From positions 21,696,001-21,760,000 of the forward strand of contig CP086569.2 in NCBI GenBank assembly GCA_009914755.4: a stretch of 64,000 bases of DNA, in the 5' to 3' direction. Position numbers and translations under genes: made by a program. The DNA comes from the human T2T-CHM13v2.0 reference genome, Homo sapiens. The notes under the pieces were generated by a model, which saw nothing but the letters and a program-made list of their open reading frames with translations, ran no database searches and had not been told where the DNA came from. Positions 54,701 through 58,265 of the stretch are shown piece after piece. The first letter of the stretch is position 1, and each line of letters starts with the position of its first letter.

Positions 54701-55194
54701 TTAAGCATCATTTTCAATTGTTCATTGCTGGTATGCAAAAGTACAGTTGGTTTGTTTATACTGATGTTTTGTACTGCAACCTTGCTGAACCCATTTACTA
54801 GCTGTGATTTTTTTTGTATGGATTCCTTTAAATTTTCTACATACATAACATGTCATTTTAAATACAGGTAGTTTCACATCTTTTTTAATCTCTATACCTT
54901 TTATTTTTTTCTCTCTACCCCAAAACCTAATTGTGTTGGTTAAAACCTCTAGTATTGTATTGAAAAATAATTTATGTTTCACTTATTTTTGATATGAGAG
55001 AAAGTTTTCAGTCTTTTGTCAATAACGAGAGTCAAACTCTGTAAAATATTTTCAAGATTTTTTTTCTGAGACAAATATAAGTCACCATGGCCTTTGACAC
55101 AGCCTGAGAATGTATGCTCAATGTGGTCATGGTGCAGCTTGGTTTTGGTTTTATATATTTTACAGAGGCATGAGACATCAGTTAAGAAATACAT

Positions 55195-55556
55195 CGTATC
55201 CTGAGACTTTGCTGAAGTTGCTTATCAGATTAAGGAGATTTTGGGCTGAGACAATGGGGTTTTCTAGATATACAATCATGTCATCTGCAAACAGGGACAA
55301 TTTGACTTCCTCTTTTCCTAATTGAATACCCTTTATTTCCTTCTTCTGCCTAATTGCCCCGGCCAGAACTTCCTATGTTGAATAGGAGTGCTGAGAGAGG
55401 GCATCCCTGTCTTGTGCCGGTTTTCAAAGGGAACTCTTCCAGTTTTTTCCCATTCAGTATGATATTGGCTGTGGGTTTGTCATAGATAGCTATTATTATT
55501 TTGAAATACGTCCCATCGATACCTAATTTATTGAGAGTTTTTAGCATGAAGGGTTG
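55195..55556 (-). mobile_element. Young L1PA (L1PA2/3-like) inverted 5' segment (ORF2 RT-domain codons ~640-760). Part of a twin-primed insertion together with 55557-56637
   Basis: Minus ORF 55350..55607 reads ...[61 protein letters not shown], nearly identical to L1HS ORF2. The FADDM antisense motif atcatgtcatctgcaaacag is present. Confidence 0.85.
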
Positions 55557-56637
55557 GGCATGGGCAAGGACTTCATGTCTAAAACACCAAAAGCAATGGC
55601 AACACAAGACAAAATTGACAAACGGGATCTAATTAAACTAAAGCGCTTCTGCACAGCAAAAGAAACTACCATCAGAGTGAACAGGTAACCTACAAAATGG
55701 GAGAAAATTTTCACAACCTACTCATCTGACAAAGGGCTAATATCCAGAATCTACAATGAACTCAAATAAATTTACAAGAAAAAAACAAACAACCCCATCA
55801 AAAAGTGGGCGAAGGACATGAACAGACACTTCTCAAAAGAAGACATTTATGCAGGCAAAAAACACATGAAAAAATGCTCACCATCACTGGCCATCAGAGA
55901 AATGCAAATCAAAACCACAATGAGATACCATCTCACACCAGTTAGAATGGCAATCATTAAAAAGTCAGGAAACAACAGGTGCTGGAGAGGATGTGGAGAA
56001 ATAGGAGCACTTTTACACTGTTGGTGGGACTGTAAACTAGTTCAACCATTGTGGAAGTCAGTGTGGTGATTCCTCAGGGATCTAGAACTAGAAATACCAT
56101 TTGACCCAGCCATCCCATTACTGGGTATATACCCAAAGGATTATAAATCATGCTGCTATAGACACATGCACACGTATGTTTATTGTGGCATTATTCACAT
56201 TAGCAAAGACTTGGAACCAACCCAAATGTCCAACAATGATAGACTGGACTAAGAAAATGTGGCACATATACACCATGGAATACTATGCAGCCATAAAAAA
56301 TGATGAGTTCATGTCCTTTGTAGGGACATGGATGAAATTGGAAATCATCATTCTCAGTAAACTATCGCAAGAACAAAAAACCAAACACCACATATTCTCA
56401 CTCACAGGTGGGAAATGAACAATGAGATCACATGGACACAGGAAGGGGAACATCACACTCTGGGGACTGTTGTGGGGTGGGGGGAGGGGGGAGGCATAGC
56501 ATTGGGAGATATACCTAATGCTAGATGATGAGTTAGTGGGTGCAGCACACCAGCATGTCACATGTATGCATATGTAACTAACGTGCACAATGTTCACATG
56601 TACTGTAAAACTTAAAGTGTAATAATAAAAGAAAAAA
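55557..56637 (+). mobile_element. Young L1PA (L1PA2/3-like) direct 3' segment: ORF2 from about codon 1085 to the end, 3'UTR and A-rich tail
   Basis: Plus ORFs 55818..56069 and 56101..56418 are nearly identical to the L1HS ORF2 C-terminus ([20 protein letters not shown]...[30 protein letters not shown]). The 3'UTR matches L1HS. An 11-bp TSD aagaaatacat lies at 55184-55194 and 56638-56648, enclosing both segments. Confidence 0.9.
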
Positions 56638-58265
56638 AAGAAATACATTGGTTTGGTCTAGAAAAGTGGGACAACCCAAAGCTCGGGGTGTGAGAGGGAC
56701 TTGCAGACTCTAGGTAAATTTAAACATTTTCTGGTTGATAATTCGATGAGTTTATCCAAAGACCTGGGATTGATAAGTAATATTCAGGTTAAGATAAAAT
56801 GTTGTGGAGACCAAGGTTCTTTTGAAGTCTTATAATGGCTACCCTTAGAGAGAATAGATGACAAATGTTTTCTATTCGGACCTTAGAAAAGTACTAGACA
56901 CTTAATTCATCTCTTCAGAATTGGGAGGGCCTGGAAGAAAAAGATATACCTATATTAATGTTCTTTACAGATGCAAATTTACCCCCACAAAGGACAGGGT
57001 TGCAAGGCCATTTTAAAATATGGGAAAGAAACATGTTTTGGGGTAAACCATTTTTACTTTCTTCTTTGTCACATAGTGTTATGCCGGAATCAGATCGGAA
57101 AGTAAGTCATGATATATAAGCTTAAATAAAAGCCATCTGATGAGAATTTGTGGTTTGTAGGGCATGAATCCCCAGACCTTTTAGATAGTAATTTGGGCAA
57201 GATTAAAAATTGGAGCTTAGTTCTCAGACCCACTCTTGGTGAAACGCATTATGTAGAATACATGTGCAGGCCAACACACAGCAGCAGGTCTCAGGCCATT
57301 TAGGAAGGCTCATTCCTAGAGTTGTCTAATTTGGCTATCTGTCAAGTTCCCAGGGTGCTAGGAAGTCTTATTTCTAACGTTCTCTGCTTTGATGGTAATA
57401 GTTTTAAACATTAGTGATTTGGATCATGGTGGGAGGACATGGTTTGATCCAATGCAATAGCCAATTATTTAAGGAGTGAGATGAAATCAATCCTATAGTT
57501 TAGTAAAAAAAAAAAAAAAAATTCAGATCAGATCTATTTTGTGAGCTATCATGATCTGGGTCTTTAACTGTGCCTTTTTCTTTTGCTGTATCTGGCATCA
57601 CACTTACAGGATATGAATAATGCTAATATAGTAACAAATATTATAAAGATAGGGAAGATTAGGAATCCAAAAAGTTTATATGTAGAATCAGTGGCAGTAA
57701 ACAAGTGAACTAGTCAGACAAAAACCCTGTATGAATTATCATTATATGATATGCATATTCTTTGATCAGTCTCACAATATGTTTACCTGCTTTACCAAGC
57801 ATTATGTGACCTTATGATAACTCTTATTTGAGGGTTGTAGAACTAACATTAAATCAGAATCCAAGAAATTTAGTCTCTATTCTGACCAATTTATCTCCAC
57901 ACATGTATAAAATCCCAAGGAGGGTATAAATCTGAATGCAAGGAATGCAGAGTCCTCAGTGCCTAAATTGTTATAGGACTTGTTAAAAGTGGAGGAAACC
58001 ATTGTTCCCACCACTTTTATATTGCACCATGTACTGGTATTTGGGAGAGAAGAGGAGGCTCAGTTACAAGAGAAGTCATATAATTCTATAGTGCATTTTT
58101 TTTTCCCTCAGTGGGACTCCCTATGGCAGAGGACCTTAATAATCAAAACATTTATAGCCAATTAATTTTTTAAAAACATATAGGAATGGATATGGATGAG
58201 CATTCATTTCTTCTGAAATGAATTTTTATTTAAGGAAAAAATAGCCAACAACAAAACCAAAATGC

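What the first reader, a model, noticed from the sequence alone, without database searches (positions are those of the whole stretch)
55184..56648. Young L1PA2/3-like insertion with twin-priming architecture (inverted RT-domain piece joined to a direct 3' piece) inside perfect 11-bp TSDs
A 362-bp minus-strand L1 segment (ORF2 codons ~640-760) abuts a 1.08-kb plus-strand L1 3' end (ORF2 codon ~1085 to the poly-A) at 55556/55557. Identical 11-bp direct repeats aagaaatacat flank the pair at 55184-55194 and 56638-56648. One target-site duplication enclosing an inverted 5' piece and a direct 3' piece is the hallmark of a single twin-primed L1 retrotransposition. About 1 kb of L1 sequence between the two pieces is absent. 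Both pieces are more than 97% L1HS-like by eye, so the event is evolutionarily recent and could be lineage-specific or even polymorphic.
Basis: seen in the sequence. Interest (0 to 1): 0.5.

Follow-up and report, generated by a model that had tools for sequence, protein, structure and literature searches.

The report
Ordinary 5'-inverted (twin-primed) L1 insertion
This is one old, dead copy of the human LINE-1 jumping gene whose front part was pasted in backwards during insertion, a well-known and common outcome called twin priming, so it is ordinary.

Summary
An antisense L1 piece (55195/6-55556) abuts a sense L1 3' end (55557-56637). The pair is bracketed by identical 11-bp repeats, AAGAAATACAT, at 55184-55194 and 56638-56648. 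A match that long at both homology boundaries has a chance expectation of about 7e-5.

The inverted piece is ORF2 codons 610-731/732, not ~640-760. The direct piece starts at codon 989, not ~1085. The missing L1 stretch is 770 bp, not ~1 kb. Identity to L1HS-Ta-like references is about 95-96%, not above 97%.

The rest fits a single twin-primed retrotransposition:
- The target site reads TT|AAGA, a good L1 endonuclease site.
- The poly-A remnant abuts the 3' repeat.
- The inverted piece comes from L1 sequence upstream of the direct piece and sits directly on the 5' repeat.
- Both pieces are nearest the same reference contigs and carry similar private divergence (2.8% vs 1.9%, p=0.29).

The element groups with the youngest L1PA clade (L1PA2/3-like, GAG not ACA). 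It has about 2-3% private substitutions, three in-frame stops and two frameshifting deletions. I infer it is roughly 10-18 Myr old and fixed, not polymorphic. Weak 5' microhomology and the large internal gap are slightly atypical. No primate orthologue could be retrieved with these tools. Interest is low.

The parts
55184..55194 (+). 5' copy of the target-site duplication, AAGAAATACAT. It is preceded by TT, so the target reads TT|AAGA.
55195..55195 (.). Single ambiguous base C. All L1 references have T here. It is either one filler nucleotide or the first inverted L1 base after a T>C change.
55196..55556 (-). Inverted L1 segment of 361 bp. It covers ORF2 codons 610 (at 55556) to 731 (at 55196), within the reverse-transcriptase domain. 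It has a 5-bp deletion after 55372 and 10 private substitutions.
55557..56418 (+). Direct L1 segment from ORF2 codon 989 to the stop codon at 56416-56418. It has three in-frame stops and a 2-bp deletion near 56159.
56419..56626 (+). L1 3' UTR. It carries tGAG rather than ACA at the Ta-diagnostic triplet (56529-56532).
56558..56619 (+). Local cluster of 7-8 private, transversion-rich substitutions inside the 3' UTR tail.
56627..56637 (+). Eroded poly-A remnant, AAAAGAAAAAA. The next two A's are shared with the TSD.
56638..56648 (+). 3' copy of the target-site duplication, AAGAAATACAT.

Best explanation
This is a single L1 retrotransposition by target-primed reverse transcription with twin priming, into the target 5'-CATCAGTT|AAGAAATACAT|TGGTTTGG-3'.

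Inferred steps:
1. L1 endonuclease nicked the bottom strand at 5'-TCTT/AA-3'. The T-rich 3' end primed on the poly-A tail of an L1PA2/3-type RNA and copied about 1.07 kb, back to ORF2 codon 989.
2. The top strand was cut 11 nt downstream. Its 3' end (...AAGAAATACAT-3') primed internally on L1 RNA near ORF2 codon 732 and copied about 366 nt, back to codon 610.
3. The two cDNA ends were joined blunt at 55556/55557. The 770 nt of RNA between the two primed stretches was never copied.
4. Fill-in of the staggered cuts produced the 11-bp duplication.

Shown by the sequence: the anatomy, the L1 coordinates, the TSD, the endonuclease-type site, and the equal subfamily and divergence of the two pieces. 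Inferred from the published twin-priming model: the order of molecular steps.

The copy has since decayed (stops, frameshifts, about 2-3% private substitutions, shortened A-tail). It has no function of its own.
For: - The 11-bp TSD sits exactly at the outer limits of L1 homology, with chance about 7e-5.
- The target reads TT|AAGA, one mismatch from the TTTT/AA bottom-strand preference quoted in PMC2912911.
- The inverted piece is ORF2 610-731/732, upstream of the direct piece (989 to the end), and abuts the 5' TSD with its 3'-most L1 base, as the model requires.
- Neither piece has a TSD of its own, and the inverted piece has no A-tail.
- Private substitutions are 10/361 against 20/1069, Fisher p=0.29. 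Against the same nearest contig, L001, they are 10 in 361 and 21 in 918.
- L001 and L081 match the window at both inverted-piece diagnostic sites and at 11/12 and 10/12 direct-piece sites.
- Flanks beyond the TSDs are not young L1.
- 5'-inverted L1s make up 18-31% of L1 insertions. Only 46% have the two cDNAs within 20 bp of each other, so a large gap is within the described range.
Against: - The 5' junction shows at most 1 nt of microhomology and possibly one filler base. In PMC2912911 only 4.6% of 5'-inverted L1s lacked microhomology there, and extra nucleotides were rare.
- The inversion junction is blunt.
- The 770-bp gap is larger than in the 46% of published cases whose two cDNAs lie within 20 bp.
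- No empty orthologous site was available to prove that both pieces arrived together.
Confidence: 0.87

Rival explanations
1. Post-insertion rearrangement. A conventional L1 copy, 5'-truncated at ORF2 codon 610 and about 2.2 kb long, inserted in plus orientation. Its first 366 bp were later inverted and the next 770 bp deleted.
For: The final sequence alone cannot formally distinguish this from twin priming. The copy has suffered other small deletions of 5 bp and 2 bp.
Against: It needs an inversion breakpoint that coincides to the base, or within 1 nt, with the L1/TSD boundary, plus a linked 770-bp deletion. No inverted repeats flank the inverted segment that could have mediated this. Twin priming predicts this exact layout and is common.
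Confidence: 0.04
2. Two independent events. An older antisense L1 fragment was already present, and a 5'-truncated L1 later landed next to it. The 11-bp repeat is a coincidence.
For: The window is extremely L1-rich. An unrelated ancient antisense L1 ORF2 fragment lies only 200 bp to the left, at 54718-54982.
Against: - The direct piece has no TSD of its own at 55546-55556.
- The 11-bp repeat at the outer boundaries has chance about 7e-5.
- The antisense piece has no A-tail and does not continue on the far side of the direct piece.
- Both pieces share nearest references and divergence.
Confidence: 0.02
3. Twin priming on two different L1 RNA molecules. The two nicked ends each primed on a separate L1 transcript, as seen for different mRNAs in experimental L1 systems. 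This would explain the 770-nt gap without an aborted first cDNA.
For: The 770-bp gap and the blunt joint. The bioRxiv paper 10.1101/2024.12.14.628481 describes reciprocal ends extended from different mRNA templates.
Against: Both pieces match the same reference type (L001/L081) at diagnostic sites. Nothing requires a second template, and gaps over 20 bp occur in about half of ordinary 5'-inverted insertions.
Confidence: 0.07

Closest known systems
5'-inverted L1 insertions formed by twin priming (Ostertag & Kazazian 2001; surveyed in PMC2912911 and PMC12016303)
   Same: An inverted 5' segment and a direct 3' segment of one L1 sit inside one TSD. There is a poly-A tail next to the 3' TSD and an endonuclease-type target. 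The inverted segment derives from L1 sequence upstream of the direct one. The 11-bp TSD lies within the 10-15 bp interquartile range reported in PMC12016303, although below the 14-16 bp peak of PMC2912911.
   Different: There is little or no microhomology at the 5' junction, possibly one filler base, and a blunt inversion junction. The gap between the two cDNAs is 770 bp, whereas 46% of published cases lie within 20 bp.
L1PA2 / L1PA3 subfamilies of primate L1 (the hominoid L1 lineage, L1Hs 3.1 Myr to L1PA5 20.4 Myr, as quoted in PMC5237266)
   Same: It shares the derived states of L1HS-Ta-like contigs at 11 of 11 lineage-informative ORF2 C-terminal and 3' UTR sites. It falls in the youngest clade of an NJ tree.
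   Different: It lacks the Ta triplet ACA and has (t)GAG. Private divergence of about 2-3% is on the high side for L1PA2. The exact subfamily name could not be assigned without Repbase/Dfam consensus sequences.
Conventional 5'-truncated L1 insertion
   Same: The direct 1.08-kb 3' end has an A-tail, a TSD and an endonuclease-type site.
   Different: The 5' end is not joined to the target directly but to an inverted RT-domain fragment.

Membership tests
Twin-primed (5'-inverted) L1 insertion | Two segments of L1 in opposite orientation, directly abutting | tested here: met
   Minus-strand L1 runs 55196-55556 and plus-strand L1 55557-56637, with the junction at 55556/55557.
Twin-primed (5'-inverted) L1 insertion | The inverted segment lies at the 5' side and comes from L1 sequence upstream of the direct segment. 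Its 3'-most L1 base is next to the 5' TSD. | tested here: met
   ORF2 codons 732->610 read left to right. The direct segment runs from codon 989 to the 3' end.
Twin-primed (5'-inverted) L1 insertion | A single target-site duplication encloses the composite, and neither segment has its own | tested here: met
   The 11-bp AAGAAATACAT is found at both outer boundaries, with chance about 7e-5. There is no repeat at the inner junction.
Twin-primed (5'-inverted) L1 insertion | A poly-A tail at the end of the direct segment, and an L1 endonuclease-type target (TTTT/AA on the bottom strand) | tested here: met
   The A-remnant is at 56627-56637. The target reads TT|AAGA, which is bottom-strand TCTT/AA, one mismatch from the preference.
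Twin-primed (5'-inverted) L1 insertion | Both segments have the same subfamily and age | tested here: met
   Private substitutions are 2.8% against 1.9%, p=0.29. Both have the same nearest contigs, L001 and L081.
Twin-primed (5'-inverted) L1 insertion | Microhomology of 2-5 nt between the top-strand primer (the end of the 5' TSD) and L1 at the 5' junction. This is typical rather than obligatory. | tested here: not met
   There are 0-1 nt of microhomology, and base 55195 mismatches L1. PMC2912911 reports that only 4.6% of cases lack microhomology. A 5-nt TACAT match exists 7 nt further along L1, but it would need a later 6-bp deletion.
Twin-primed (5'-inverted) L1 insertion | An empty orthologous or ancestral site carries one TSD copy and neither segment | not testable with these tools
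   Searches for the flank found nothing in metagenome contigs, prokaryote-genome contigs or the protein collection.
L1PA2/L1PA3 subfamily | Subfamily-diagnostic nucleotides relative to curated consensus sequences | tested here: inconclusive
   No curated consensus sequences were available. Proxy contigs place the copy in the youngest clade, with GAG instead of the Ta ACA.
L1HS (human-specific, possibly polymorphic) | Ta or pre-Ta diagnostic triplet (ACA or ACG) and very low divergence | tested here: not met
   The triplet is (t)GAG. The copy differs from Ta-like contigs by about 4%, has about 2-3% private substitutions, and carries three stops and two frameshifts.

The most novel reading that the evidence does not exclude
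The dense, transversion-rich cluster of 7-8 private substitutions in the last ~60 bp of the 3' UTR (56558-56619) lies just inside the point where first-strand synthesis starts. It could be a footprint of error-prone synthesis or repair during integration rather than later chance mutation. If other old and new L1 insertions showed it too, it would point to a mutagenic step at the TPRT initiation end.
Probability: 0.08. Interest if true: 0.35.

Novelty: already known. Interest (0 to 1): 0.08.

Why it matters
It matters little. 5'-inverted L1 copies make up roughly a fifth to a third of L1 insertions, and the twin-priming model has been established since 2001. This copy is a tidy, decayed textbook example. 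Its only uses are as a phylogenetic presence/absence marker for hominoids, and as one more data point for twin-priming events with a large internal gap, a blunt joint and almost no priming microhomology.

Tried and rejected
1. Orthologous or empty-site search. All of these found nothing, so presence/absence in other genomes is untested.
- A 26-nt flank-plus-TSD pattern scanned against metagenome and prokaryote-genome contigs.
- Exact look-ups of 12 junction, flank and L1 ORFs from this locus.
- A composite protein query built from 12 unique-flank ORFs.

2. L1HS reference DNA. No contig encoded an ORF2 C-terminus identical to the PDB L1HS protein; the best was 98%. The IMG/VR scan found none. 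I therefore used Ta-like contigs L087 and L098 as proxies.

3. Papers. Ostertag & Kazazian 2001 and Khan et al. 2006 are not held in the library. I relied on papers that quote them.

4. Link to the nearby ancient L1 fragment. I asked whether the antisense fragment at 54718-54982 is continuous with the young inverted piece or spans the target. It is not: the L1 coordinates are not contiguous, amino-acid identity is 36%, and no L1 signal was found in 54983-55183 or right of 56648.

5. Longer priming microhomology. TACAT lies 7 nt further into L1. I rejected this as the preferred reading because it needs an extra 6-bp deletion exactly at the junction.

6. General 3' UTR tail hypervariability. Pooled other L1 copies show 0.98% singleton differences in the tail against 0.93% in the body, so the tail is not generally hypervariable.

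Full report
**What is in the sequence**

Reading 54900-56900 shows AAGAAATACAT at 55184-55194 and again at 56638-56648. The repeat finder reports the same pair as an exact 11-nt direct repeat 1454 nt apart. Between the two copies, all sequence is L1:
- 55196-55556 matches L1 on the minus strand.
- 55557 to about 56626 matches L1 on the plus strand.
- An eroded A-run, AAAAGAAAAAA, follows.

Flanks outside the repeats do not match young L1.

**Is the repeat chance?**

I placed random boundary pairs 1443 nt apart in this window and allowed +/-3 nt of slack at each boundary. A match of 11 nt or more occurred in 7.5e-5 of 200,000 trials. When the right boundary was restricted to the ends of A-runs, the figure was 5.8e-5. 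The repeat is therefore a real target-site duplication.

**Exact L1 coordinates**

No repeat library was available, so I anchored positions in two ways:
- to the solved human ORF2p structures in the PDB;
- to L1 contigs recovered as human contamination, from metagenomes (L001-L080) and from 'bacterial' genome assemblies (L081-L158).

The inverted piece translates in two frames, to ORF2p 611-670 and 698-732. With tblastn it covers 610-670 and 673-733. The frames are separated by a 5-bp deletion after 55372. A hand-assembled conceptual translation hits Pfam RVT_1.

The direct piece aligns to ORF2p 989-1274 and ends at the stop codon 56416-56418. It carries three in-frame stops and a 2-bp deletion near 56159.

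In 15 of 16 full-length references, 770 bp of L1 lies between the two pieces.

Its codon estimates (~640-760 and ~1085) and the '~1 kb' gap are not.

**Junctions**

- Inversion joint. Antisense L1 would continue ...GAAGGGTTG|ttgaat and sense L1 reads ...gacata|GGCATGGG. The window has GAAGGGTTG|GGCATGGG, so the joint is blunt with no shared base.
- 5' junction. The window reads ...AAGAAATACAT|C|GTATCC, while antisense L1 reads ...cattgattt|T|GTATCC. Base 55195 is therefore either a single filler nucleotide or a T>C change, and priming microhomology is 0-1 nt.
- A curiosity. The TSD end TACAT equals L1 antisense GTACAT seven nucleotides further on. Using it would need an extra 6-bp deletion exactly at the junction, so I do not prefer that reading.
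- Target. The reconstructed target is CATCAGTT|AAGAAATACAT|TGGTTTGG. On the bottom strand this is TCTT/AA, one mismatch from the TTTT/AA preference of L1 endonuclease quoted in PMC2912911.

**Same age and same source type?**

I counted positions where the window's base is carried by fewer than 5% of related L1 sequences:
- inverted piece: 10 private substitutions in 361 nt (2.8%);
- direct piece: 20 in 1069 nt (1.9%);
- Fisher p=0.29.

Against the single nearest contig, L001, the counts are 10 mismatches in 361 nt and 21 in 918 nt. Contigs L001 and L081 match the window at both diagnostic sites of the inverted piece and at 11/12 and 10/12 sites of the direct piece.

**Subfamily and age**

- An NJ tree of the direct region places the window copy in the youngest clade, next to the two contigs that carry the Ta-specific ACA triplet (L087, L098). 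The window copy sits on a long private branch.
- At 11 lineage-informative sites in the ORF2 C-terminus and 3' UTR it shares the derived state with those Ta-like contigs. It has (t)GAG instead of ACA.
- 'L1PA2/3-like' is therefore reasonable, although the exact name needs curated consensus sequences.
- Identity to the Ta-like contigs is 96.0% and 95.8% for the direct piece and 95.1% for the inverted piece including its 5-bp gap. The best reference reaches 96.5% and 95.9%. 'More than 97% L1HS-like' is overstated.
- The private divergence of about 2-3%, the stops, the frameshifts and the short A-tail argue for an age of roughly 10-18 Myr. This is my inference. It uses the 3.1-20.4 Myr span of L1Hs-L1PA5 quoted in PMC5237266 and substitution rates recalled from memory: about 0.17% per Myr, as I remember it from Khan et al. 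2006, and about 0.1% per Myr per lineage for hominids.
- A human polymorphism is very unlikely at this divergence.

**Mechanism**

The layout is the one the twin-priming model predicts:
1. The bottom-strand nick primes on the poly-A tail and gives the direct 3' piece.
2. The top-strand end, which is the 3' end of the left TSD copy, primes internally on L1 RNA. This gives an antisense piece whose first base is its 3'-most L1 position.
3. The two cDNA ends are then ligated.

Published surveys show how common this is:
- 18-22% of new germline and somatic L1 insertions are 5'-inverted (PMC12016303).
- About 31% of human- and chimpanzee-specific L1 insertions are 5'-inverted (PMC2912911).
- Only 46% of cases have the two cDNAs within 20 bp of each other, so a 770-bp gap is not exceptional.

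The slightly atypical points are the near-absence of microhomology at the 5' junction (only 4.6% of cases lack it) and the possible filler base.

**Rivals**

- Later inversion plus deletion of a conventional copy. This needs a breakpoint coinciding with the L1/TSD boundary, and no inverted repeats are present to drive it.
- Two independent insertions. This is contradicted by the outer TSD, by the lack of an inner TSD, and by the inverted piece having no A-tail and not continuing on the other side of the direct piece.
- Priming of the two ends on two separate L1 RNAs. This has been seen with different mRNAs experimentally. It cannot be excluded but is not required.

**What could not be done**

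No primate or human population comparison was possible. The following all found nothing:
- flank-pattern scans;
- exact-protein look-ups;
- a composite flank-ORF homology search.

The single-event reading therefore rests on internal evidence only.

**Verdict**

This is a real, correctly located and correctly interpreted feature, but an ordinary and already well-understood one. The claims about recency and identity are too strong, and several numbers needed correction.

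Noticed in passing
window 56558-56619: There are seven to eight private substitutions in 62 bp of the L1 3' UTR tail: G>T, A>G, C>G, T>A, G>T, C>T, C>G and A>G. Five are transversions. The rate in the other 993 bp of the direct piece is about 1.3% (Fisher p=2.6e-4, or p=0.003 with a singleton-only count). Other L1 copies pooled show no tail excess. The test is post hoc and the cluster is unexplained.
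   Followed up: partly
window 54718-54982 (minus strand): An ancient, highly diverged L1 ORF2-like fragment lies 200 bp left of the insertion. It covers about residues 668-748 at 36% amino-acid identity. By coincidence it overlaps the same RT region as the young inverted piece. It is not contiguous with that piece and shows no sign of spanning the target.
   Followed up: yes
window 55190-55196 vs L1 antisense: The 3' end of the left TSD (TACAT) is identical to L1 antisense GTACAT located 7 nt beyond the start of the inverted piece. This could be a priming microhomology if a 6-bp deletion followed. That reading is speculative.
   Followed up: partly
window 1-6245: A minus-strand L1PA element (~95% to reference contig L084) is interrupted at 893-1518 by a separate 626-bp L1 5'-region fragment (L084 positions 993-1631, 89% identity). 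This looks like an L1 nested in an L1, or a rearrangement.
   Followed up: no
window 30975-37417 and 43869-47526: Two more minus-strand L1PA elements (~92-93% to L084). The first is near full length, with an apparent ~310-bp overlap or duplication around 35166/35167. The second lacks about 2.4 kb internally (L084 positions 1233-3694). Together with elements at 21320-27474 and 53198-54417, the window is unusually L1-dense.
   Followed up: no
window 54578-54700 and 58253-58577: Alu-like repeats, which match multiple other places in the window, flank the locus. The left one is partial.
   Followed up: no
loci L081-L158 (GTDB species-representative 'bacterial' assemblies): Seventy-eight contigs in prokaryote genome assemblies encode primate L1 ORF2. 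Examples are Mycobacterium sp. 1100029.7 contig_1 (7.4 kb), several JCM Streptomyces assemblies and Psychrobacter cibarius. This is human-DNA contamination deposited as bacterial sequence.
   Followed up: no
locus L042 (metagenome contig OIHO01000137.1): This contig also carries L1 pieces in opposite orientations: direct-piece homology at 1507-2446 (+) and 262-1 (-). It is possibly another 5'-inverted L1 copy.
   Followed up: no
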